IMG/VR virus record: IMGVR_UViG_2563366830_000018 | Strand: one strand, 5' to 3' | Origin: a virus | Lineage: Duplodnaviria; Heunggongvirae; Uroviricota; Caudoviricetes | Length of the DNA: 42,771 bases | Shown: positions 32,895-42,771 of the stretch, piece by piece | Layout: each line of letters begins with the position of its first letter | Position numbering within the stretch: the stretch's first letter is position 1 | Program-made: the position numbers and the translations under genes | The notes under the pieces: generated by a model | Told to the model about the DNA's origin: nothing | The model's input: the letters and a program-made list of their open reading frames with translations, nothing else | The model's database searches: none

Positions 32895-34051
32895 TTACGC
32901 CCCCTTACCTCTGAAGGGTTCAGCGACAAATTTATGAGACTGGCCAGTAGCGCCGCGTCGTTGATGCGGTCATACAGACTTACAGCCAGCGGGGATTCGG
33001 CTTTTGCCAACATGGGATAAAGCTGCTGCAGCCAGACCTTGTGGATTACCGACAGGTGGGAGTAAAGCACGCTGGCGTTATCTGCGGCATCGCTCAGCGT
33101 GGATGGCTTTGAAAGCAGTTTTTCCATCTGGTTAAAGGCATTGATGTATGCCTCTTTGAACCGGGCAGCACGTTTACCCGTGAAACCCATAGCAAGAAAC
33201 GCAAAACCGTCTCGTGTGATTTGATAGCAAAGGAGCTTGCGTGTACCACCGTTCGGTTGATTTACCGAAATCGATGTCTCCGCAAAATTGCGGGCACAAA
33301 ACTCAGGGGAACAATCCAGAGTGCGGATCTTTTTCAGCACATCGTCGTGACGCTTGGAGAAGAAGTTGGCAACAGCCAAAGAAGTGGTAACGGCCTGGCC
33401 GTTGTCAATGGTGATTTCAGGTTGAGTGAGGGCTGGGATCGTAGCCATGATGGCAGCCTCCGTTGACAGTGAAAAACTTCCACCACCGGAAACGCCAATT
33501 TCACTGGTGGTGAACTGGACGGGGTTGGCGTAACCGGCGTCAACGGAGACCGGCGCACCTTTCGGTGCCCCCGCCCAGCCCACCATAATCTGGATGTGAG
33601 CAAATGCGGACGATAAAAAAGACGCTGGCGCGTCATACATCGCCGTTGACAATTTCAGGACGCCAATCCCGGCACCCGCTTTATAAGGTGCCTGAACAGT
33701 GTAACGTCCCGGAATTGCAGAATCAATATGCTGGTGGTCCTTCACACTCAACAAAATCACGCCTGAATTTCCACAAAGGACTAAAGCACTCATGCGGGTA
33801 GTCTTTGCGAAGATAGATAACGCGCTGTGTTTCTGGCTCCCAACGAATAACATGGACATAAAGCCCTCTTCCGTCACGAAACCAGCGGTTAAGTTCCTGC
33901 ACAACTCGCCCCCCACAGTCAGGTAAAGTTCTCTGTGGTTACTTACAGCCAGGTGATTTGGTAATCTGCATTCATGCCGTAACAACAGGTGTTCAGCGAC
34001 GCTGACCACCAGCTGTTGCGACAAACGGTTATTTGCCGTTAAACTATTCAT
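32891..34051 (-). CDS. Rha-domain phage regulatory protein with about 200-aa N-terminal extension
   Basis: Central region (from MATIPALTQPEITIDNGQAV) resembles the Rha family. ATG at 34051 overlaps the upstream stop (ATGA); internal ATG at 33448 has SD GGAGG. Confidence 0.55.
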   Translation of the reverse strand: MNSLTANNRLSQQLVVSVAEHLLLRHECRLPNHLAVSNHRELYLTVGGELCRNLTAGFVTEEGFMSMLFVGSQKHSALSIFAKTTRMSALVLCGNSGVILLSVKDHQHIDSAIPGRYTVQAPYKAGAGIGVLKLSTAMYDAPASFLSSAFAHIQIMVGWAGAPKGAPVSVDAGYANPVQFTTSEIGVSGGGSFSLSTEAAIMATIPALTQPEITIDNGQAVTTSLAVANFFSKRHDDVLKKIRTLDCSPEFCARNFAETSISVNQPNGGTRKLLCYQITRDGFAFLAMGFTGKRAARFKEAYINAFNQMEKLLSKPSTLSDAADNASVLYSHLSVIHKVWLQQLYPMLAKAESPLAVSLYDRINDAALLASLINLSLNPSEVRGRK

Positions 34052-34955: not shown

Positions 34956-35648
34956 ATGAACATAGGAAACCGAGTCAGACAACTTCGCCAGGCGAAGAAC
35001 ATGAAAATCGCCGATCTCGCTGAAGCAATAGGAGTGGATGCGGCGAATATCTCACGCCTGGAAACAGGTAAGCAGAAACAATTCACTGAACAAGCCCTGA
35101 GTAATATTGCCAGGAGCTTAGGTGTTGATATCGCTGATCTCTTTACCTCAGACGTCAAAAGTAATACTGTATGTAAAAACAGTATTGGTGAGGATGTTGC
35201 GCAGGTGAAGGATGTATTCCGTATTGAAATGCTGGATGTCAGTGCCAGTGCGGGAAATGGCCTTATCCAGGGCGGTGATGTCATTGATGTGATTCATGCC
35301 ATTGAATACAGAACTGATAATGCTGTATCGATGTTTGGCGGACGGCCAGCCAATCACATTAAAGTTATCAACGTTCGTGGGGACAGTATGTGTCCAACCA
35401 TTGAGCCAGGAGATCTCATCTTCGTTGATATCAGTATCAATCAGTTTGATGGGGATGGTATATATGTATTTGGTTTTGATGATAAAATTTACGTCAAACG
35501 ACTGCAAATGATACCTGATAAACTGCTGGTAATTTCTGATAATCAGATTTACCGCGAATGGGGAATTACCAGCGAAAACGAACATCGGTTTATGGTCTTT
35601 GGAAAGGTCTTAATCAGTCAGTCACAAACCCTTAAGCGACACAATTAA
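34956..35648 (+). CDS. cI: CI-like repressor (HTH plus S24 LexA-type peptidase domain)
   Basis: 230-aa product with N-terminal HTH (NMKIADLAEAIGVDAANISRLETGK), Ala-Gly site (SASAGNG) and Ser/Lys dyad context (GDSMCPTI, YVKRL). No SD upstream of the ATG. Confidence 0.88.
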   Translation: MNIGNRVRQLRQAKNMKIADLAEAIGVDAANISRLETGKQKQFTEQALSNIARSLGVDIADLFTSDVKSNTVCKNSIGEDVAQVKDVFRIEMLDVSASAGNGLIQGGDVIDVIHAIEYRTDNAVSMFGGRPANHIKVINVRGDSMCPTIEPGDLIFVDISINQFDGDGIYVFGFDDKIYVKRLQMIPDKLLVISDNQIYREWGITSENEHRFMVFGKVLISQSQTLKRHN

Positions 35649-35669
35649 CCCCTACCTCAACATCAATTA

Positions 35670-35690
35670 GCCACCAGAAGGTGGCTTTTC
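35670..35690 (+). terminator. Intrinsic terminator after the cI-like gene
   Basis: GCCACC-AGAA-GGTGGC hairpin followed by TTTTC. Confidence 0.6.
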
Positions 35691-35703
35691 ATTACCCACC
35701 AAA

Positions 35704-35756
35704 TTGCATATCTCGCAATAAAAACACTTGCATAATGCGCAACTTCATTTTATCTT
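35704..35756 (+). promoter_or_regulatory. Leftward operator/promoter region (OL/pL-like)
   Basis: Two 15-mers TTGCATATCTCGCAA and TTGCATAATGCGCAA 24 bp apart, same TTGC-N7-GCAA pattern as OR; candidate -35 TTGCAT and -10 TATCTT. Confidence 0.5.
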
Positions 35757-36149
35757 TCTTTCCAGACATACAAACAAGGTACTAACAAAATTTGGTTGTA
35801 ACACGGCGTATGGCACATGCGTCGTTAGCGGTCTGGTGACGTTAAAGGGGACAATCCACTCCTTGCTCGGGCAAACAAACCAGGTAGCCGGAATGTGCAA
35901 GTCAATGATGATGCTGATAAGACGCCTAACCAGCGTGGCGATCCGGTTTGACGCCTGGGAAGAGACCAGGGTGCAACGATGAGGGCATTTATGGAACCGC
36001 GACAAAGTGTGGTGCCGTAACTGGCTAAGTGCTCTCAGCGTTGTGGTAATCCGCGAAATGGCGCGGCGGTAAGTATGGCGGGGTTACTCTTTCCCCGTTG
36101 AGGACACCGGATTGTCAGGTTGACCATACGCCTGAGTGACAACCCCACC

Positions 36150-36213
36150 ACAACAGCCACTGCTTTGGCGGTACCAGTTTGTACCCTTGCTTCCGGCTGG
36201 TACCGCTCTTTTT
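36150..36213 (+). ncRNA. dicF: DicF-like small RNA candidate with intrinsic terminator
   Basis: TTTGGCGGTACCAGTTTGTACCC resembles the recalled DicF 5' half (TTTGGCGGTATCAGTTTTACTCC); 10-bp stem GCGGTACCAG/CTGGTACCGC then TCTTTTT. 5' end unknown. Confidence 0.45.
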
Positions 36214-36214
36214 A

Positions 36215-36301
36215 CAAAACAGAGAAGAGCATCACCGGACGACGGGCTCATAACCCAATCCATCCGGGCGGCTGTCACCGCAGGTGTTCTTCTCTGTTTT
36301 G
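36215..36301 (+). repeat. Perfect 14-bp inverted repeat flanking 59 nt
   Basis: CAAAACAGAGAAGA ... TCTTCTCTGTTTTG, between the DicF-like terminator and the next gene's RBS. Confidence 0.6.
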
Positions 36302-36350
36302 TGGAGAAACCAACCGACCTTGCAGGGTCGGTATGATGAGGAGCAGCAAA

Positions 36351-36713
36351 ATGGCTAGCGTACGCAGTACTGATGTGCAGGTATTTATCGTAGAACTGGA
36401 CGGCGGCGTATTTGAAACCAAACTCGGCGCAGTTCTCAGTGAAGTCGCTTCCGGTGTGATGAACACGAAAAACAAAGGTAAAGTCTCGGTCAATCTGGAC
36501 ATCGAACCGTTTGATGAGAACCGTGTGAAAATCAAACACAAACTCTCATATGTTCGCCCGACTAACCGCGGGAAAATCTCCGAAGAAGACACCACCGAAA
36601 CGCCGATGTATGTCAATCGAGGTGGTCGCCTGACTATTCTGCAGGAAGACCAGGGACAATTACTGACTCTTGCCGGTGAACCTGACGGAAAACTCCGCGC
36701 AGCAGGTCGTTAA
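36351..36713 (+). CDS. Hypothetical protein (YfdP-like by position)
   Basis: In-frame ATG at 36351 with SD GAGGAG gives a 120-aa product (MASVRSTDVQVFIVELDGG...), first of a block resembling yfdPQRS. Confidence 0.6.
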   Translation: MASVRSTDVQVFIVELDGGVFETKLGAVLSEVASGVMNTKNKGKVSVNLDIEPFDENRVKIKHKLSYVRPTNRGKISEEDTTETPMYVNRGGRLTILQEDQGQLLTLAGEPDGKLRAAGR

Positions 36714-36778
36714 TATCGTTCGTAATAAACTGATTATTTATCTCATCACTGAATATCTTTATATAGTGAGGACTTATT

Positions 36779-37603
36779 ATGTCTCAGAACTTAGACGCAA
36801 CCGCAATTAATCAAATCCATGCCCTTATTTCTGCTCAGGGTGTTAATGAAATTATCAGTAAGATTGGTGCCGATGCTGTGGCATTGCCTGAGAATTTCCG
36901 CATTCATGATCTGGAAAAATTTAATTTAAATCGCTTCCGTTTCCGTGGTGCACTTTCCACTGCCAGCATCGATGATTTTACCCGTTATTCTAAAGATCTT
37001 GCAGATGAAGGCACCCGCTGCTTTATCGATGCCGATAATATGCGTGCCGTCAGTGTGCTTAACCTGGGTACTATTGATGAGCCAGGTCACGCAGATAACA
37101 CTGCCACTCTCAAACTGAAAAAGACAGCACCGTTCTCTGCTCTGTTGTCTGTTAACGGCGAGCGTAACTCCCAGAAGTCACTGGCAGAATGGATCGAAGA
37201 CTGGGCCGACTACCTTGTGGGCTTTGATGCTAATGGTGACGCTATTCAGGCAACAAAAGCGGCTGCGGCAGTCCGTAAAATCACGATTGAAGCAAACCAG
37301 ACCGCTGATTTTGAAGATAATTACTTCAGCGGCAAACGCTCCCTGATGGAGTCTGTCGAAGCGAAGACCAAAGACATTATGCCAGTGGCATTTGAATTTA
37401 AATGCGTTCCGTTTGAAGGTCTGAAAGAACGTCCGTTTAAATTACGCCTCAGCATTATCACTGGCGATCGTCCTGTACTGGTTCTGCGCATTATTCAGCT
37501 GGAAGCGGTGCAGGAAGAAATGGCTAACGAATTTCGTGATCTGCTTGTTGAGAAATTCAAAGACAGCAAAGTAGAAACCTTTATTGGTACTTTCACCGCC
37601 TGA
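36779..37603 (+). CDS. yfdQ: YfdQ-like protein (DUF2303)
   Basis: 274-aa ORF directly upstream of the HD-domain gene; same size and context as recalled YfdQ. Confidence 0.6.
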
Positions 37604-37730
37604 TTTCATTACTGCAAATGCCCCTGCGGGGGCATTTATGGAAACGTAATTAACTCAATAATCACCGGATGGTGAGGGCTTCCTTTTACCAGAATTCAGC
37701 GCGGTGCAGTGCATATACGTGGAGAACAAA

Positions 37731-38267
37731 ATGTCATTTATTAAAACTTTTTCCGGGAAGCATTTTTATTATGACAAGATAAATAAAGACGACATCGATA
37801 TTAACGATATCGCGGTTTCCCTTTCAAATATCTGTCGCTTTGCCGGTCATCTTTCGCACTTCTACAGCGTCGCCCAACATGCGGTTCTTTGCAGCCAGCT
37901 GGTGCCGCAGGAATTTGCTTTTGAAGCGTTAATGCATGATGCAACAGAAGCGTATTGCCAGGACATTCCCGCACCACTGAAACGCCTTCTTCCTGACTAT
38001 AAACGGATGGAAGAAAAAATAGACGCCGTAATCCGTGAGAAATACGGGTTACCCCCAGTTATGAGTACACCCGTGAAATATGCCGATCTCATCATGCTGG
38101 CAACCGAACGCCGCGATCTCGGGCTTGATGATGGCTCTTTCTGGCCTGTACTGGAAGGCATCCCGGCAACAGAGATGTTCAACGTGATTCCACTGGCACC
38201 GGGTCATGCCTACGGGATGTTTATGGAACGTTTTAACGATTTATCGGAGTTACGCAAATGCGCATGA
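37731..38267 (+). CDS. yfdR: HD-domain 5'-deoxynucleotidase, YfdR-like
   Basis: Start at the in-frame ATG with SD GGAGAA (MSFIKTFSGKHFYYD); HD-type metal-binding residues (HxxxH context, HDATEAY). Confidence 0.75.
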   Translation: MSFIKTFSGKHFYYDKINKDDIDINDIAVSLSNICRFAGHLSHFYSVAQHAVLCSQLVPQEFAFEALMHDATEAYCQDIPAPLKRLLPDYKRMEEKIDAVIREKYGLPPVMSTPVKYADLIMLATERRDLGLDDGSFWPVLEGIPATEMFNVIPLAPGHAYGMFMERFNDLSELRKCA

Positions 38268-38620
38268 ATGTTTTCGAAATGGAAGGGTTTCTTCGCGGGA
38301 AATGTGTACCGCGAGATCTGAAAGTGAATGAAACAAATGCTGAGTACCTGTTACGTAAATTCGACGCGCTTGAAGCTAAATGTGCGGCACTGGAAAACAA
38401 AATAATACCAGTGTCAGCTGAACTGCCACCAGCAAATGAAAGTGTTCTGTTATTTGATGCTAACGGAGAAGGCTGGCTAATTGGCTGGCGTTCTCTCTGG
38501 TACACCTGGGGACAAAAAGAAACCGGAGAATGGCTGTGGACATTTCAGGTCGGGGACCTTGAAAACGTCAATATCACTCACTGGGCAGTAATGCCGAAAG
38601 CACCGAAGAATAAAAAATGA
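38258..38620 (+). CDS. DUF551-like protein
   Basis: 120-aa product with a Trp-rich C-terminal half (GWLIGWRSLWYTWGQ...WLWTF); overlaps the upstream stop. Confidence 0.55.
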   Translation: MRMNVFEMEGFLRGKCVPRDLKVNETNAEYLLRKFDALEAKCAALENKIIPVSAELPPANESVLLFDANGEGWLIGWRSLWYTWGQKETGEWLWTFQVGDLENVNITHWAVMPKAPKNKK

Positions 38621-38820
38621 GCGTGATAAAAACTCATACAGGAATTGTTATCACCCGAGACGGTCCGCAGGTAAAAAAACTGCACCAGACAAAGCGGATG
38701 TGGGTCGTCGGAAAAAACGAGTTTTACCACAAAGAAACCGGACGCCGCCACTTTGCAGAAAATACTCGCCGCCGACTGCTGATCGATACCATCAAGCCTA
38801 TCGAGGTGAAGCATGTTTAA
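38617..38820 (+). CDS. Small hypothetical protein
   Basis: 67-aa ORF overlapping both neighbours by 4-8 nt. Confidence 0.45.
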   Translation: MSVIKTHTGIVITRDGPQVKKLHQTKRMWVVGKNEFYHKETGRRHFAENTRRRLLIDTIKPIEVKHV

Positions 38821-39052
38821 ACAGAACGAAAAATCTATCGCTCAAATTGCTGAGTATATCCCGCGTGCGTGCCGGGATATGCAGTTGCAGGAAGCCAAAG
38901 CACGCCTGGAGAAAAAAATTGCGCTCTATATCGATGACGGCTGTGATGCCGCCGTTCTTAACGCGGCGTTCGCGCCAGCTCTTAACAGTCATACGCGAAA
39001 GTCTTTTTTTTCGTGCATCGCAGCGCAGATCCGTAAAGGAGGCAACCAGTGA
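38813..39052 (+). CDS. Small hypothetical protein
   Basis: 79-aa ORF in the same coupled series. Confidence 0.4.
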   Translation: MFKQNEKSIAQIAEYIPRACRDMQLQEAKARLEKKIALYIDDGCDAAVLNAAFAPALNSHTRKSFFSCIAAQIRKGGNQ

Positions 39053-39648
39053 GCAACATTAACTATCAGGTACTGCGTGAAAAGGCAGAGAAAGCAACTA
39101 AAGGAAGCTACATCGTAGGGCATACATCTGTTAACCAACACGGCAATTTAACAGGAGTTTTTGTTTGTCAAAAATGGAAAGGAGAACCCGGTGGCGTAAT
39201 TGCAGAATGTCACGTTAACTGCCTGGTTGAAACAGATGCTCAGGCTTATGCAAACGCTGAATTCATAGCAGAGGCTAACCCGGCTACCGTGCTGGCACTG
39301 CTGGATGAACAGGAAAGAAACCAGCAATACATCAAACGCCGCGACCAGGAGAACGAGGATATTGCGCTAACGGTAGGGAAGCTGCGCGTTGAGCTTGAGG
39401 AGACAAAATCAAAACTCAACGAGCAGCGCGAGTATTATGAGGGAGTTATCTCTGATGGGTGCAAGCGTATTGCTGAACTGGAAGCGCGGGAAGTTCAATT
39501 ACCGACTCGCTACGACCTTCGATATGGACACCCCATAAATGCAGATGAGCGACAAGTCATGATACCTAAAGAAAATGGCAGTTGGCTTTACCTGATTGAC
39601 CTAGAACACGCATTACGCGTCGCTGACATTCGCATCAAAGGAGAGTGA
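39049..39648 (+). CDS. Ead/Ea22-like protein, putative
   Basis: 199-aa product with a central coiled-coil-like segment; typical of the early-left ea region. Tentative. Confidence 0.5.
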   Translation: MSNINYQVLREKAEKATKGSYIVGHTSVNQHGNLTGVFVCQKWKGEPGGVIAECHVNCLVETDAQAYANAEFIAEANPATVLALLDEQERNQQYIKRRDQENEDIALTVGKLRVELEETKSKLNEQREYYEGVISDGCKRIAELEAREVQLPTRYDLRYGHPINADERQVMIPKENGSWLYLIDLEHALRVADIRIKGE

Positions 39649-39649
39649 T

Positions 39650-40165
39650 ATGGCGTTAACACACCACGAACTCTGTCAGATTGCGTACAAGTTCCTTAAG
39701 CGCAACGGGTTCAAGGTTTGCTTTCATGACCGCTTTGTTGCTGTAACCAGTACCGGAGAACAGCCAGATGCTATGGGATTCAGAAATTCAGCATCATGCC
39801 TGATAGAGGCGAAGTGTTCTCGTGCTGACTTGTTGGCAGATAGAAAAAAGCGTTTCCGTAAAAATCCCTCACTTGGCATGGGCGACTGGCGATTCTTTAT
39901 TAGTGAGCCGGAAATTATTTCAGTTGAGGATTTACCTCCCGGCTGGGGATTACTTCACGTTGTTAACGGAAGAGTACGGAAAGTACATGGATGGCCCAGG
40001 GGTAATTGCTGTTGGGGTAATCCTGACGATAAGCCATTTACCGGGAATAAGCAGGTTGAATGCGATTACATGTTATCTGCATTAAGGCGCATGGAGTTGA
40101 GAGGGCACCTTAATGAAATATATGACGGTGTAATTGTTAATAAGAAAGAAGGAAACGCGGCATGA
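39650..40165 (+). CDS. PD-(D/E)xK nuclease-fold protein (MmcB-like)
   Basis: Motif GEQPDAMGF...CLIEAKCSRAD matches the PD...(D/E)xK signature. Confidence 0.55.
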   Translation: MALTHHELCQIAYKFLKRNGFKVCFHDRFVAVTSTGEQPDAMGFRNSASCLIEAKCSRADLLADRKKRFRKNPSLGMGDWRFFISEPEIISVEDLPPGWGLLHVVNGRVRKVHGWPRGNCCWGNPDDKPFTGNKQVECDYMLSALRRMELRGHLNEIYDGVIVNKKEGNAA

Positions 40166-40680
40166 TCACTATTACCAAAGAGCGACTGCTGACAATCAAG
40201 CAGTGGCGCGAAACATACGGACCGGGTAGCAACGTTGTACTGCCAGCAGAAGAAGCGGAAGAACTGGCACGAATTGCTCTGGCATCGCTGGAAGCAGAGC
40301 CGATAGGTTTCCGTTGCAGGCGCAATGATAACCTTGGTGATTGGAGTTACGTATATCATCGAGAGCCAGATGATTTTGAGCGCAAACATTTAGTGATAGA
40401 GGGCATTTACGCCGCCCCTCCAGCGCCGGTAGTGCCGGAAGAAATGTATTGGCAGGATGCGCCAGTTGAAGGCAGCAGCAAAGCGGCTGCATACGCTACA
40501 GGCTGGAACGATTGCCGCGAAGCCATGCTTCAGTCCGGAAACTTTCGGGAAAATAAAGATTCGTCAACCAATAATTTTCGGAAAATCCCGGAAGCGTCAA
40601 CCAGCTCTCCGGTAACTCCGGATGGTTGGATAAGCTGTAGTGAGCGAATGCCGGACGACAGGCAGGAGGTGAATCAATGA
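40162..40680 (+). CDS. Hypothetical protein ending in a truncated DUF551-like motif
   Basis: 172-aa ORF whose last residues (PDGWISCSERMPDD) resemble the start of a DUF551 domain before a stop. Confidence 0.45.
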   Translation: MITITKERLLTIKQWRETYGPGSNVVLPAEEAEELARIALASLEAEPIGFRCRRNDNLGDWSYVYHREPDDFERKHLVIEGIYAAPPAPVVPEEMYWQDAPVEGSSKAAAYATGWNDCREAMLQSGNFRENKDSSTNNFRKIPEASTSSPVTPDGWISCSERMPDDRQEVNQ

Positions 40681-40760
40681 GCTGGCCTGATGCAATCGTA
40701 ACTCTGGGGGTGGTATTCGCAGCAGCGTTTGTTGTGTTCTCGATTTGTCGATGGGGATAA
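40677..40760 (+). CDS. Candidate 27-aa hydrophobic peptide
   Basis: Not in the ORF track (under 60 aa). ATG overlaps the upstream stop (ATGA) and is preceded by AGGAGGTG; product MSWPDAIVTLGVVFAAAFVVFSICRWG is a single predicted TM helix. Confidence 0.35.
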   Translation: MSWPDAIVTLGVVFAAAFVVFSICRWG

Positions 40761-40764
40761 CCAC

Positions 40765-41007
40765 ATGTTCGCTTTGATTCAACGCGGTCAGATATACACG
40801 GACAGAGCTGGATACCCCGTGGTGATTACTCGCATCACTGAGCACTCAGTGTTCTTTCGACGGATGGACGGACGATCCGGGCGGGTACGCATTGGTGAGT
40901 TAAACTGCCTGTTCGAACATATTGACCACCAGGAGTACCGCAAAATTCTCGCGGACACTGAGCAGGAAAAGCACCTGAAAAAATTACGAGCCATAAAAAG
41001 GAAGTAA
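40765..41007 (+). CDS. Small hypothetical protein
   Basis: Track ORF starts with TTG at 40729; in-frame ATG at 40765 with SD GGGGA gives an 80-aa product. Confidence 0.45.
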   Translation: MFALIQRGQIYTDRAGYPVVITRITEHSVFFRRMDGRSGRVRIGELNCLFEHIDHQEYRKILADTEQEKHLKKLRAIKRK

Positions 41008-41010
41008 AGA

Positions 41011-41157
41011 ATGAATAAAGCATTTGAACGATGGGTCCACCAGCGTTACTGCAATCGCTATGACCTGACGCGAGATGTTGACGGCTTCTACTGTCGTGAA
41101 GTTGTGAAGCGAATGTTTGAAGTGTGGTGCCACTGCCGTGGGCTGAGTGTTGTGTGA
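41011..41157 (+). CDS. Candidate 48-aa Cys-rich small protein
   Basis: Not in the ORF track. ATG preceded by AAGGAAG; product MNKAFERWVHQRYCNRYDLTRDVDGFYCREVVKRMFEVWCHCRGLSVV has four Cys; ends just before xis. Confidence 0.35.
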   Translation: MNKAFERWVHQRYCNRYDLTRDVDGFYCREVVKRMFEVWCHCRGLSVV

Positions 41158-41165
41158 GGTAATAC

Positions 41166-41402
41166 ATGGGCAATGTGATTCAACTGGCTCCCAATGAATG
41201 GGTTTGTGAAAGCGTTCTTATCGCAATTACCGGGCTCAAACCAGGCACAATTCTTCGGGCCCGGAAAGAATGCTGGATGGTTGGAAGAGAGTATATTCAC
41301 GTATCACCAGACGGTAATCCAAAGCCTTCCAGTGAATGTATGTATAACAGAAAAGCAATAGATGCCTGGGTCGCCTCAATGAAAAACAAACAACCCAGGT
41401 GA
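41166..41402 (+). CDS. xis: Excisionase (DUF1233-type Xis)
   Basis: 78-aa product with the recalled motif ITGLKPGTILRARKECWMVGREYIHVSPDG; immediately upstream of int. Confidence 0.75.
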   Translation: MGNVIQLAPNEWVCESVLIAITGLKPGTILRARKECWMVGREYIHVSPDGNPKPSSECMYNRKAIDAWVASMKNKQPR

Positions 41403-41457
41403 TTTAATATCATGAAATATGTAAGCTCGTATCGCTCTTGGGCGTCTGGAGGTATCG

Positions 41458-42771
41458 ATGGATAAAGTCAAATATCCAACAGGCGTCGAAAACCACGGCG
41501 GCACATTACGCATCTGGTTTAATTTTAAAGGTAAACGTGTCAGGGAAAATCTTGGTGTCCCTGACACTGCCAAGAACAGGAAGATCGCCGGGGAACTGCG
41601 GACATCAGTATGTTTTGCCATCCGCACAGGAAGCTTTGATTATGCTGCACAGTTCCCTGACTCCCCCAACCTTCAGGCTTTTGGGGTAAGTAAAAAAGAA
41701 ATTACGGTGAAGGAACTTGAAGAAAAGTGGCTGGATCTGAAACGAATGGAAATCTCTGCAAATGCATTCAATCGCTATGAATCCGTTGCAAGAACGATGG
41801 TTCCGAAAATTGGAGGCAGTAGACTGGTGTCATCGGTAACCAAAGAGGAATTGCTGTATATCAGGAAAGATTTGCTGACCGGGTATCAGAATTCAACGAA
41901 AAACAAAGCAGCAGCAAAAGGACGGAGCGTCGTTACTGTAAATTATTACATGACGACAATCGCTGGAATGTTTCAGTTTGCTGCAGATCACGGTTACTTA
42001 GAAGCAAATCCCTTCCAGGGAATTAAGCCTCTTAAAAGAGCCAGGGCAGAGCCAGATCCGCTAACTCGTGACGAATTTATTCGCCTGATAGATGCTTGCC
42101 GACATCAGCAGACGAAAAACCTGTGGTCATTGGCTGTGTACACAGGAATGCGTCACGGTGAACTGGTCTCCCTGGCCTGGGAAGATATCGATCTGAAGGC
42201 AGGAACAATTACCATCAGGCGCAATTATACGAAACTTGGTGAGTTCACTCTACCGAAAACTGAAGCAAGCACAAACAGGGTTGTGCACCTTATCCAGCCC
42301 GCTATCAGTGTCCTGAAAAATCAGGCTGAAATGACAAGACTGGGTAAGCAGTACAACATCAAGGTGCAACTACGTGAATATGGACGTTCAGTGAACCATG
42401 AATGTACTTTCGTGTTTAACCCTCAAGTGGTTAGAAAAAGCGAACAGGTAGGTTTTGTCTACAAAGTCGATTCTGTAGGTGACTCATGGGAAACAGCCAT
42501 TAAGCGTGCAGGGATCAGGCATCGAAAGGCATACCAGTCACGACACACTTATGCGTGCTGGTCATTATCTGCCGGAGCAAACCCAAGCTTCATTGCCAGC
42601 CAGATGGGCCATGCAAGTGCCCAGATGGTATTCAATGTATACGGAGCATGGATGACTGACAGCAATGCAGAACAGATCGCAATGCTGAATCAGAAGCTGA
42701 CAGATTATGTCCCAATGATGCCCCATAGTCACCAAAGTGACACCAGAGGCTTATTAAAATCAGTAAGTTAA
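41458..42771 (+). CDS. int: Tyrosine-type site-specific integrase
   Basis: 437-aa product with N-terminal arm-binding-like region and C-terminal catalytic domain (HRKAYQSRHTYA, GHASAQMVFNVYGAW); SD GGAGG; stop is the last codon of the window. Confidence 0.88.
   Translation: MDKVKYPTGVENHGGTLRIWFNFKGKRVRENLGVPDTAKNRKIAGELRTSVCFAIRTGSFDYAAQFPDSPNLQAFGVSKKEITVKELEEKWLDLKRMEISANAFNRYESVARTMVPKIGGSRLVSSVTKEELLYIRKDLLTGYQNSTKNKAAAKGRSVVTVNYYMTTIAGMFQFAADHGYLEANPFQGIKPLKRARAEPDPLTRDEFIRLIDACRHQQTKNLWSLAVYTGMRHGELVSLAWEDIDLKAGTITIRRNYTKLGEFTLPKTEASTNRVVHLIQPAISVLKNQAEMTRLGKQYNIKVQLREYGRSVNHECTFVFNPQVVRKSEQVGFVYKVDSVGDSWETAIKRAGIRHRKAYQSRHTYACWSLSAGANPSFIASQMGHASAQMVFNVYGAWMTDSNAEQIAMLNQKLTDYVPMMPHSHQSDTRGLLKSVS

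What the first reader, a model, noticed from the sequence alone, without database searches (positions are those of the whole stretch)
36150..36340. DicF-like sRNA candidate followed by a perfect 14-bp inverted repeat
Downstream of the pL-like operators, TTTGGCGGTACCAGTTTGTACCC closely resembles the recalled 5' half of E. coli DicF and is followed by a 10-bp perfect stem plus T-tract. DicF inhibits ftsZ translation and is processed from a longer transcript. Right after it a perfect 14-bp inverted repeat separated by 59 nt could be an RNase III site. The match is from memory and partial.
Basis: partly seen in the sequence, partly recalled or inferred. Interest (0 to 1): 0.6.

Follow-up and report, generated by a model that had tools for sequence, protein, structure and literature searches.

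The report
Variant dicF-position hairpin in prophage leader
The hairpin sits exactly where the cell-division-blocking small RNA DicF sits in E. coli K-12, but it is a different, unannotated version that is not predicted to block ftsZ, and it lies inside a long, highly structured leader RNA of a prophage early operon whose upstream part is a conserved, apparently undescribed folded RNA.

Summary
A 13-bp hairpin (10 perfect pairs) plus U-tract lies at 36167-36213. The 14-bp inverted repeat is the core of a 20-bp stem at 36214-36302.

The DicF reading is only partly right. The 119 nt just upstream (36038-36156) are 88% identical to the sequence just upstream of K-12 dicF, so this hairpin occupies the dicF position. 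K-12 also has a long stem right after its hairpin.

It is not DicF by Rfam: no hit even at E<=10, while K-12 scores 76.7 bits. It lacks DicF's first 12 nt. Its predicted ftsZ pairing is at background (-3.2 versus -9.2 kcal/mol for DicF).

At least 13 different hairpins fill this slot in related phages, some strongly complementary to ftsZ.

The window is an E. coli O104:H4 prophage with no N-like gene found in the early-left operon. The element lies in a ~590-nt untranslated leader starting at the repressor-controlled left promoter.

The upstream block is a covariation-supported, pseudoknotted RNA that Rfam 15 does not contain. It also occurs after the P1 ban promoter.

Most likely the hairpin is a leader terminator or attenuator that can release a small RNA. 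Function is untested.

The parts
35704..35756 (+). Left early promoter region. Two operator-like palindromes: TTGCATATCTCGCAA (35704-18) and TTGCATAATGCGCAA (35728-42). Inferred -35 TTGCAT (35728-33) and -10 TATCTT (35751-56).
   Evidence: The same TTGC-N7-GCAA motif occurs in the cI-cro intergenic region at 34921-35. It lies just after the cI-like gene (HTH + peptidase S24). Homology with phages of other immunity types starts at about 35775-35784. The promoter hexamers were read by eye and were not found by the consensus scan.
35784..35979 (+). First part of the conserved untranslated leader. It ends in a hairpin with a purine-rich loop (CCTGG 35954-58 / CCAGG 35966-70) followed by GTGCAAC.
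   Evidence: Conserved in phages with other immunity regions. Single-base indels against L053 exclude coding. Leader ORFs have no Pfam hit. The whole leader folds with z = -5.1. The structure of this part was not resolved.
35980..36037 (+). Helix P0: TGAGGGCATTTA (35980-91) pairs with TAAGTGCTCTCA (36026-37) and encloses a variable hairpin, directly 5' of the core element.
   Evidence: At least 9 different complementary sequence versions across related loci, e.g. AAGCGCACGG/CCGTGCGCTT and AAGAGCGCTC/GAGCGCTCTT. Absent in P1-type copies.
36038..36156 (+). Core conserved structured RNA ('module A', the dicF-upstream element). Outer helix 36040-46/36148-54; hairpin P2 36051-55/36062-66; P3 base 36068-70/36106-08 with variable P3 about 36080-83/36093-96; P4 36109-17/36137-45 with inner 36118-20/36130-32. 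Candidate pseudoknot GTATGG 36073-78 with CCATAC 36124-29.
   Evidence: 105/119 identical to K-12 sequence upstream of dicF. Over 89 distinct sequences, 97.4% of cells are paired against 32-51% when partners are slid. 14 pairs show changes on both sides, and 0 of 500 shuffles reach any measure. Covariance model R1 scores 132 bits here and finds no second copy in the window. Many G-U pairs fit only the + strand. No Rfam family matches.
36157..36166 (+). Short spacer between the core element and the hairpin. In K-12 this spacer is 19 nt longer and contains the RNase E-made 5' end of DicF.
   Evidence: Alignment. RNase E processing is reported in PMC5069750 and PMC9438474.
36167..36213 (+). The 'dicF-slot' hairpin of the finding: 13-bp stem, 15-nt loop (19 nt if the three G-U pairs at its top are left open) and U-tract. 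Likely an intrinsic terminator or attenuator and a possible small RNA.
   Evidence: z = -4.0. Homologous position and ends to K-12 DicF. At least 13 alternative hairpins occupy this slot in related loci. Rfam DicF negative. No ftsZ pairing predicted.
36214..36302 (+). Long stem (20 bp: 36214-33 / 36283-302) closing a three-way junction (arms 36235-67 and 36268-81). Candidate RNase III substrate.
   Evidence: Energy -45.5 kcal/mol, z = -7.5. Four pairs with compensatory changes among 13 variants. Analogous to the K-12 dicF-dicB stem GAATTTTGTGATG.../...CATCACAAAATTC.
36303..36350 (+). Conserved GGAGAAAC, small hairpin 36313-36332, and Shine-Dalgarno GAGGAG (36338-43) of the first gene.
   Evidence: z = -2.3, weak. 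Conserved across the window-type long-stem loci.
36351..36713 (+). First gene of the early-left operon, a YfdP-like 120-aa protein. It is followed by yfdQ, yfdR and further genes running to the window's right end. It gives context and is not part of the RNA element.
   Evidence: RefSeq annotation of the identical O104:H4 locus. K-12 yfdP. No Pfam domain.

Best explanation
The finding is the central piece of a ~590-nt untranslated leader RNA. The leader is transcribed rightward (+ strand) from the repressor-controlled left early promoter of a lambdoid prophage in which no N-like gene was found in the early-left operon. The prophage is 100% identical to E. coli O104:H4 and belongs to the SfV/cdtI/CPS-53-like group.

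The hairpin at 36167-36213 occupies the same slot as dicF in the K-12 Qin prophage. It lies directly downstream of a conserved pseudoknotted RNA (36038-36156) and directly upstream of a long double-stranded stem (36214-36302).

It most likely acts as an intrinsic terminator or attenuator at the entrance of the early-left operon (inferred). Transcripts that stop there, or read-through transcripts cut in the 20-bp stem by RNase III, could release a small hairpin RNA, as happens for DicF in K-12 (inferred by analogy).

This allele is not DicF and is not predicted to repress ftsZ. If it acts in trans, its loop (UUUGUACCCUUGCUUCCGG) must have other targets.

Shown: homology of position, the structures, their conservation and covariation, the absence of a DicF model match, and the absence of predicted ftsZ pairing. 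Inferred: transcription from the left promoter, termination, processing, and any trans activity.
For: Identity and context: 100% match to O104:H4 prophages. Gene order is cro, cI, a ~700-nt unannotated gap, then yfdP-like, yfdQ, yfdR. Operators are repeated at 35704 and 35728 and in the cI-cro region.

Positional homology to dicF: (module A 105/119 identical, DicF 28/53).

Architecture shared with K-12: core element, then terminator hairpin, then long stem, then first gene.

Hairpin and stem stability.

Covariation: long stem; upstream element; P0 helix.

No other convincing intrinsic terminator on the + strand at 36350-42771, so this hairpin is the one obvious barrier in the operon.

Not coding.

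The 149-nt hairpin-plus-stem unit is present at >=80% coverage in 2481 of 5426 complete E. coli genomes, and RefSeq annotates no RNA there.

DicF biogenesis by termination, RNase E and RNase III: PMC5069750, PMC9438474.
Against: There are no expression, 3'-end or cleavage data for this allele. K-12 has lost this leader, so K-12 transcriptomes do not help.

The 15-19-nt loop is large for an efficient intrinsic terminator, and the U-tract has only five uninterrupted U.

Two related loci (L056, L077) have the upstream element but no hairpin, so the two parts are separable.

The promoter hexamers were read by eye.

No target for the loop was found within the prophage: only chance-level 9-mers. A genome-wide target search could not be run.
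Confidence: 0.72

Rival explanations
1. It is a true DicF orthologue: a small RNA that base-pairs with the ftsZ ribosome-binding site and blocks cell division.
For: Same genomic slot and same flanks as dicF. The motif CAGUUU, which pairs with AAACU just before the ftsZ AUG, is retained. Other alleles in the same slot are predicted to pair well with ftsZ: L013 at -11.9 kcal/mol with an 11-nt perfect match, L007 at -7.9. Early-left operons of lambdoid phages often carry division inhibitors such as DicB (Qin; PMC5069750) and Kil (lambda; PMC3961180), and KilR (Rac) from my own knowledge.
Against: Rfam DicF gives no match at E<=10, with positive controls at 76.7 and 61.1 bits. The first 12 nt of DicF are absent and the ACUCCG core is replaced. 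The best accessibility-corrected interaction with ftsZ is -3.2 kcal/mol at +29..+34, the same as unrelated hairpins (P1 at -3.1, L067 at -3.0), against -9.2 for DicF.
Confidence: 0.08
2. It is a trans-acting small RNA with its own target set. The dicF slot would be a swappable cassette, in which different phages carry hairpins with different pyrimidine-rich loops that mask ribosome-binding sites of different host or phage mRNAs.
For: At least 13 different hairpins lie between strongly conserved flanks. Most loops are C/U-rich and anti-Shine-Dalgarno-like, and start with CAGUUU. Alleles with the same stem differ only in the loop (window, L013, L053). The unit is kept at 95-99% identity in 46% of complete E. 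coli genomes. DicF itself pairs through its terminator hairpin (PMC5069750).
Against: Fast-changing loops with conserved stems are also what neutral drift of a terminator would give. The stem is strong (-21 kcal/mol) and there is almost no single-stranded 5' tail. No target was found in the prophage. There are no Hfq or expression data. No paper in the searchable library contains the hairpin or P4-loop sequence.
Confidence: 0.3
3. The hairpin is only a regulated barrier. The conserved pseudoknotted RNA upstream (36038-36156, with P0) would be a cis-acting element that lets RNA polymerase read through it. This would work like HK022 put RNA but be unrelated in sequence. Alternatively the element could direct processing or protect the long untranslated leader from Rho.
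For: The element lies just after repressor-controlled early promoters in two unrelated phage types: lambdoid left operons, and the P1 ban operon, where P1 annotates a 'dicF-like region' right after the C1 operators. A terminator hairpin follows within about 10-45 nt in 14 of 16 downstream classes. No N-like antiterminator gene is annotated in these early-left operons. Loops and linkers are nearly invariant and there is a candidate pseudoknot, as expected for a specific binding surface. This is the only evident terminator in the operon.
Against: There is one copy per locus and none on the rightward operon, whereas put and nut come in left and right copies. There is no similarity to putL or putR, and the model finds nothing in HK022. 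In Qin the element sits mid-operon after ydfABC. SfV has the same hairpin and operon but an STnc100-like module in place of this element. There is no experimental evidence at all.
Confidence: 0.3
4. Chance hairpins in a non-functional spacer.
For: None beyond the lack of annotation in RefSeq.
Against: z-scores of -4.0 and -7.5. Conservation across phages with different immunity regions. Compensatory changes. Homology to the K-12 dicF locus.
Confidence: 0.02

Closest known systems
DicF small RNA of the Qin prophage, E. coli K-12 (Rfam RF00039)
   Same: Same slot in an early prophage operon. Same conserved 119-nt upstream block (88% identical). Same hairpin start (UUUGGCGGUAyCAGUUU) and end (CCGCyCUUUUU). 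A long double-stranded stem follows directly, before the next gene.
   Different: Lacks DicF's first 12 nt; in K-12 the 5' end of DicF pairs with xylR (PMC5069750). The loop is different, with no ACUCCG. The stem is stronger and regular. No Rfam match. No predicted ftsZ pairing. The downstream long stem is a different sequence type, and the next gene is yfdP-like rather than dicB.
'dicF-like region' annotated in phage P1 (AF234173, 68472-68573), and the 'widespread group of prophage sequences' of Faubladier and Bouche 1994 (paper not held, known to me only by title and citation)
   Same: P1 carries the same core structured element right after the C1-controlled ban promoter, followed by a terminator hairpin containing CCAGUUUG.
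   Different: P1 lacks helix P0 and the long stem. Its hairpin is short (GCCCAUCUUCGGGUGGGC). It is followed by tRNA genes and ban. The annotation is a similarity note without structure or function.
HK022 put RNAs (RNA-only processive antitermination)
   Same: A folded nascent RNA just downstream of a repressor-controlled early promoter, in a phage that makes no N-type antiterminator protein (HK022 carries nun in N's place), and upstream of terminators (PMC9378689).
   Different: put is ~70 nt with two stems and occurs as putL and putR. This element is ~119 nt with four helices and a pseudoknot, in a single copy. The only shared sequence is GCGCGGCGG, and the model gives no hit in HK022. Function here is untested.
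STnc100 / PasD prophage small RNAs (RF02076)
   Same: Same plan: an outer helix enclosing several hairpins, then a terminator hairpin. In SfV an STnc100-like module (39.5 bits, below the 47-bit cut-off) replaces the core element and uses this very hairpin as its terminator. The K-12 dicF-dicB spacer also matches weakly, at 34.4 bits.
   Different: No STnc100 match at 35600-36500 in this window. The window's true STnc100 copy is elsewhere, at 25062-25261 on the minus strand.
StxS, a small RNA made by early termination of the Shiga-toxin phage late transcript (PMC7547250)
   Same: A regulatory RNA as a by-product of a terminator placed in front of a phage operon whose expression needs read-through.
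   Different: StxS comes from the constitutive late promoter and Q-dependent antitermination. Here the promoter is repressor-controlled, so the RNA should appear mainly after induction.

Membership tests
DicF (Rfam RF00039) | Scores at or above the family's gathering score (48 bits) with the curated covariance model | tested here: not met
   No hit at gathering score on the whole window and none at E<=10 on 35600-36500. Positive controls: K-12 at 76.7 bits and L250 at 61.1 bits.
DicF (Rfam RF00039) | Lies in an early prophage operon between the conserved upstream block and a long stem preceding the next gene | tested here: met
   Upstream block 105/119 identical to K-12. Same order of parts.
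DicF (Rfam RF00039) | About 53 nt, with a single-stranded 5' part (UUUCUGGUGACG) used for some targets | tested here: not met
   These 12 nt have no counterpart, and the spacer to the upstream element is only ~10 nt.
DicF (Rfam RF00039) | Complementarity of the 3' part to the ftsZ ribosome-binding region | tested here: not met
   Accessibility-corrected best energy is -3.2 kcal/mol at +29..+34, against -9.2 at -29..-1 for K-12 DicF. This is a prediction, not an assay.
DicF (Rfam RF00039) | Ends in a Rho-independent terminator | tested here: met
   13-bp G+C-rich stem plus UCUUUUU, z = -4.0. Termination itself was not measured.
DicF (Rfam RF00039) | Made by RNase E (5' end) and termination or RNase III (3' end); Hfq-dependent; causes filamentation | not testable with these tools
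   Needs Northern blots or RACE in rne and rnc backgrounds, Hfq pull-down, and microscopy.
Intrinsic (Rho-independent) terminator | G+C-rich stem, short loop (3-8 nt), then a run of U | tested here: inconclusive
   Stem and U-run are present. The loop is 15-19 nt, so the consensus scan did not list it. K-12 DicF also has an irregular hairpin yet terminates in vivo (PMC5069750).
RNase III substrate | About two turns (roughly 20 bp or more) of nearly uninterrupted double-stranded RNA | tested here: met
   20-bp outer stem 36214-33/36283-302, including G-U pairs. Cleavage is not testable here.
HK022 put antiterminator RNA | About 70 nt with two stems, sequence related to putL/putR, with copies after both early promoters | tested here: not met
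   Different size and fold. A single copy. No model hit in HK022. Only a 9-nt shared string.
Lambda-type nut site with N protein | boxA plus a small boxB hairpin, and an N gene as first gene of the left operon | tested here: not met
   No N-like gene in the early-left operon of the window, SfV or cdtI. CGCTCTTTTTAC at the foot of the hairpin resembles boxA from memory, but most other alleles have CCGCCCTTTTT or CCGCCATTTTT instead.
STnc100 (RF02076) | Scores at or above 47 bits with the curated model | tested here: not met
   No match at 35600-36500 at E<=10. The true copy is at 25062-25261 on the minus strand. Related loci give 39.5 and 34.4 bits.

The most novel reading that the evidence does not exclude
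The 119-nt pseudoknotted RNA at 36038-36156 (with helix P0) would be a new class of cis-acting phage RNA that controls passage of RNA polymerase through the adjacent hairpin. This would be an RNA-only read-through or antitermination device for lambdoid phages that lack N and for the P1 ban operon, unrelated to HK022 put. The hairpin slot behind it would be a hypervariable cassette from which phages launch different small RNAs, DicF being only the one allele that happened to be studied.
Probability: 0.22. Interest if true: 0.8.

Novelty: new variant of a known kind. Interest (0 to 1): 0.55.

Why it matters
DicF is treated as a single small RNA of the Qin prophage. Here its locus appears as a three-part RNA platform: a conserved folded element, an exchangeable terminator hairpin, and a long processing stem. 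This particular allele is present in about 46% of complete E. coli genomes, including O104:H4 and Stx2c phages, and carries no RNA annotation.

Some alleles are predicted to hit ftsZ better than DicF itself. This one is not predicted to hit it at all. Copy counts of 'DicF' in pathogens, and phenotypes assigned to it, may therefore need to be reconsidered allele by allele.

The upstream folded RNA is absent from Rfam. It offers a concrete, testable candidate for a question I found no answer to in the papers searched: how lambdoid phages without N, and the P1 ban operon, get past a terminator at the start of an early operon.

Tried and rejected
1. Rfam scans at gathering and permissive thresholds gave no DicF. 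They gave only spurious weak hits (ar7, hammerhead II, hairpin ribozyme) with E of 2-8.

2. HK022 put: I read putL and putR from the genome. Only GCGCGGCGG is shared, and the model finds nothing in HK022. Membership rejected.

3. A second copy of the upstream element on the rightward operon, as for nut and put: none in the window with filters off (next best 12.5 bits), and one copy per locus in 92 loci.

4. Coding potential of the leader: no Pfam hits and single-base indels between relatives. Rejected.

5. boxA reading of CGCTCTTTTTAC at the hairpin foot: not conserved in other alleles. Rejected as chance.

6. A target for the loop inside the prophage: only the trivial self-antisense match and two chance 9-mers. 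An energy-based scan timed out.

7. Whole-length duplex and cofold energies with ftsZ were uninformative, giving long artificial duplexes and no loop-mRNA pairing. I replaced them with an accessibility-corrected scan.

8. The single genome-contig scan was wasted on too loose a pattern and returned chance hits in G+C-rich genomes. Distribution outside enterobacterial phages was therefore not assessed.

9. Papers: Faubladier and Bouche 1994, the P1 genome paper, and Melson and Kendall 2019 are not held. Searches for 'dicF-like', for put-like RNAs and for the literal sequences found nothing on this element.

10. A riboswitch-like alternative pairing between the element and the terminator: the spacer is hypervariable in length and sequence, and no conserved antiterminator was seen. 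Not pursued.

Full report
**What the window is.** The 711 bases around the finding are 100% identical to prophages of E. coli O104:H4 and related strains. RefSeq annotates the following there: a Cro-like gene, a cI-like repressor, a ~700-nt gap with nothing annotated, a 120-aa YfdP-like gene, then yfdQ, yfdR and more. Pfam confirms the repressor (HTH plus peptidase S24), Cro (HTH) and a CII-like protein. The window also holds C4, isrK, STnc100 and three tRNAs elsewhere. The finding lies in the unannotated gap, on the strand of the early-left operon.

**The observation.** It is all there.
- TTTGGCGGTACCAGTTTGTACCC is at 36164-36186.
- The perfect 10-bp repeat is 36168-77/36197-206. It extends to 13 pairs with G-U pairs and is followed by TCTTTTT. 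It folds at -21.2 kcal/mol, z = -4.0.
- The 14-bp perfect repeat is the core of a 20-bp stem (36214-33/36283-302). That stem closes a three-way junction at -45.5 kcal/mol, z = -7.5.
- The hairpin loop is 15-19 nt, unusually large for a terminator, so the simple scan did not list it.

- Rfam's DicF model finds nothing at gathering score and nothing at E<=10 in 35600-36500.
- The tool does find DicF where it should: 76.7 bits in K-12 and 61.1 bits in a natural variant.

A direct alignment with the K-12 dicF locus nevertheless shows that the resemblance is not accidental.
- The 119 nt just upstream of the hairpin are 105/119 identical to the sequence just upstream of K-12 dicF.
- K-12 then has 19 extra nt, including the first 12 nt of DicF.
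- Both then share TTTGGCGGTAyCAGTTT. The loops and 3' arms differ. Both end in CCGCyCTTTTT.
- In all, 28 of DicF's 53 nt are identical.

So this is the positional homologue of dicF, with a different hairpin.

**A slot with many alleles.** I fished related loci from IMG/VR with two short patterns and sorted what follows the conserved block.
- At least 13 different hairpins occupy this slot, nearly all followed by a U-tract. Most begin with UUUGGCGG and have a loop starting CAGUUU followed by C/U-rich sequence. K-12 DicF is one of them.
- Rfam's DicF model recognises only the K-12 type and one close variant.
- After the U-tract comes a long stem of one of two types. One is the window type (ACAAAACAGAGAAGAGCA.../...TGYTCTTCTCTGTTTTGT, then GGAGAAAC). 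The other is the Qin type (GAATTTTGTGATG.../...CATCACAAAATTC, before dicB).
- Both stem types show compensatory changes.
- In K-12, RNase III produces a 72-nt DicF, 19 nt longer than the terminated form (PMC5069750, PMC9438474). That places the cut in the 5' arm of the Qin-type stem; this placement is my inference from the coordinates.

**ftsZ.** I computed duplex energies corrected for the cost of opening both RNAs against the ftsZ start region.

| Allele | Energy (kcal/mol) | Site or note |
|---|---|---|
| K-12 DicF | -9.2 | -29..-1, matching the published site |
| L013 | -11.9 | 11-nt perfect match AGUUUCUCUCC |
| L007 | -7.9 | |
| L053 | -6.1 | |
| L250 | -6.0 | |
| Window allele | -3.2 | short site inside the coding region |
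| P1 hairpin (unrelated) | -3.1 | background |

This allele has lost, or never had, the anti-ftsZ core. It also has no evident target inside the prophage.

**What lies upstream.** The conserved block is a real folded RNA.
- On 28 distinct sequences, a hand-drawn structure gives 96.3% paired cells against 37-61% when partners are slid. The structure has an outer helix, two hairpins, one long hairpin with an inner extension, and a 3-bp base helix. It shows 13 pairs with changes on both sides against 1-4 when slid, and no shuffle reaches it.
- A covariance model built from it scores 132 bits in the window and finds no second copy there. It finds exactly one copy in each of 92 related loci.
- On the resulting 89 distinct sequences, 97.4% of cells pair and 14 pairs show double changes. 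This alignment was fitted to the model, so it leans towards the structure; the independent MAFFT alignment agrees.
- Two nearly invariant single-stranded stretches, GUAUGG (36073-78) and CCAUAC in the apical loop (36124-29), are complementary. They covary at one position: U-A in 80 sequences, U-G in 5, C-G in 4. This suggests a pseudoknot. The C-G cases may be a single event in the P1 lineage.
- Many G-U pairs mean the fold belongs to the + strand transcript.
- Directly 5' of it, a 10-12-bp helix (35980-91/36026-37) exists in at least nine complementary sequence versions.
- No Rfam family matches any of this, and I found no paper describing it.
- Its sequence conservation was noticed long ago. 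P1 carries a 'dicF-like region' note exactly here, right after the C1-controlled ban promoter and before a terminator, tRNA genes and ban. About 510 plasmid records match it, mostly non-mobilizable replicons of the P1 size class (~90-100 kb).

**The leader as a whole.**
- Operator-like palindromes at 35704 and 35728 match one in the cI-cro region. I read a plausible promoter at 35728-56.
- Homology with phages of other immunity types begins at about 35775-84, roughly at the inferred transcript start.
- The ~590-nt leader folds with z = -5.1 and is not coding.
- No N-like gene is present in this operon here, in SfV or in cdtI.
- There is no other convincing intrinsic terminator further down the operon.

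**How it most likely works.**
- After repressor loss, polymerase transcribes the structured leader and meets the hairpin.
- Some transcripts end there.
- Others read through into yfdP-yfdQ-yfdR and the genes beyond, which run to the right end of the window. These may be cut in the 20-bp stem, separating the leader from the mRNA.
- Either route can release a small hairpin RNA, as in Qin.

These steps are inferred by homology of architecture. None is shown for this allele. Three questions stay open: whether the released RNA acts in trans, on what, and what the upstream pseudoknotted RNA does. A put-like, RNA-only read-through device is attractive because of its position, its invariance and the lack of an N-like gene in the operon. 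It is weakened by four facts:
- the element is a single copy;
- it has no similarity to put;
- in Qin it sits mid-operon;
- SfV runs the same operon and the same hairpin with an STnc100-like module in its place.

**Verdict.**
- The finding is real and non-random.
- The label 'DicF-like' is right for position and ancestry. It is wrong for family membership and for the proposed ftsZ mechanism.
- It is a new variant of a known kind. It is very common: 2481 of 5426 complete E. coli genomes. RefSeq annotates no RNA there.

Noticed in passing
window 36038-36156 (+), with helix 35980-91/36026-37: A conserved ~119-nt four-helix RNA with a candidate pseudoknot lies directly upstream of the finding. It is absent from Rfam 15. 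It is also found upstream of K-12 dicF and after the P1 ban promoter, with one copy per locus.
   Followed up: yes
L004 (phage SfV) 2336-2551; L002 (K-12 Qin) 3433-3642: Both give sub-threshold STnc100 (RF02076) matches, at 39.5 and 34.4 bits. In SfV an STnc100-like module sits between the same GUUGUGG/CCACAAC arms in place of the conserved element, and it uses the window-type hairpin as its terminator. The K-12 dicF-dicB spacer is also STnc100-like. Prophage leader RNAs look like shuffled modules.
   Followed up: partly
window 33503-33590 (-) and 33615-33691 (-): C4 antisense RNA (81 bits) and isrK (62 bits) lie inside the RefSeq 'Rha family' CDS (32906-34051, minus strand). The annotated start codon is probably too far upstream.
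   Followed up: no
window 25062-25261 (-), 25340-25586 (-): A full STnc100 copy (129 bits) lies next to three tRNA genes, on the opposite strand to the early-left operon.
   Followed up: no
L013 (IMG/VR 3300036778_000215), hairpin after the conserved element: This allele has the same stem as the window but the loop UUUCUCUCCCUUAUUU. It carries an 11-nt perfect complement to the ftsZ ribosome-binding site and is predicted to pair more strongly than K-12 DicF (-11.9 against -9.2 kcal/mol). Rfam DicF does not recognise it.
   Followed up: partly
L127 (PP818812, labelled Actinobacillus phage) about 2596-2800: The dicF-slot hairpin and its spacer are tandemly duplicated, and the 5' end of the conserved element is replaced. 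The surrounding genes (DicA, YdaT, Kil, exodeoxyribonuclease VIII) look like an E. coli Rac-type prophage.
   Followed up: no
L250 4747-5234; L033 about 900-1359: In some relatives the dicF-slot hairpin is followed about 250-300 nt downstream, on the same strand, by isrK and C4. Several small-RNA genes are thus strung along one early operon.
   Followed up: no
L347 (K-12 CPS-53) 4560-4604: K-12 keeps only the last ~30 nt of this leader in front of yfdP. The rest is replaced by a repeat-rich stretch, so K-12 data cannot inform on this allele.
   Followed up: yes
L346 (phage cdtI) 3555-4010 (-); window 36084-36539 (-): A 151-aa ORF on the opposite strand is annotated in cdtI (orf40) across the structured leader. 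It has no Pfam hit and overlaps conserved RNA helices, so it is probably spurious.
   Followed up: partly
window 35794-99, 35971-77, 36040-46, 36148-54: There are two GUUGU-type and two ACAAC-type strands. They can pair either in series (supported by covariation for 36040/36148) or nested (the single-sequence minimum-energy fold). This is a possible conformational switch.
   Followed up: partly
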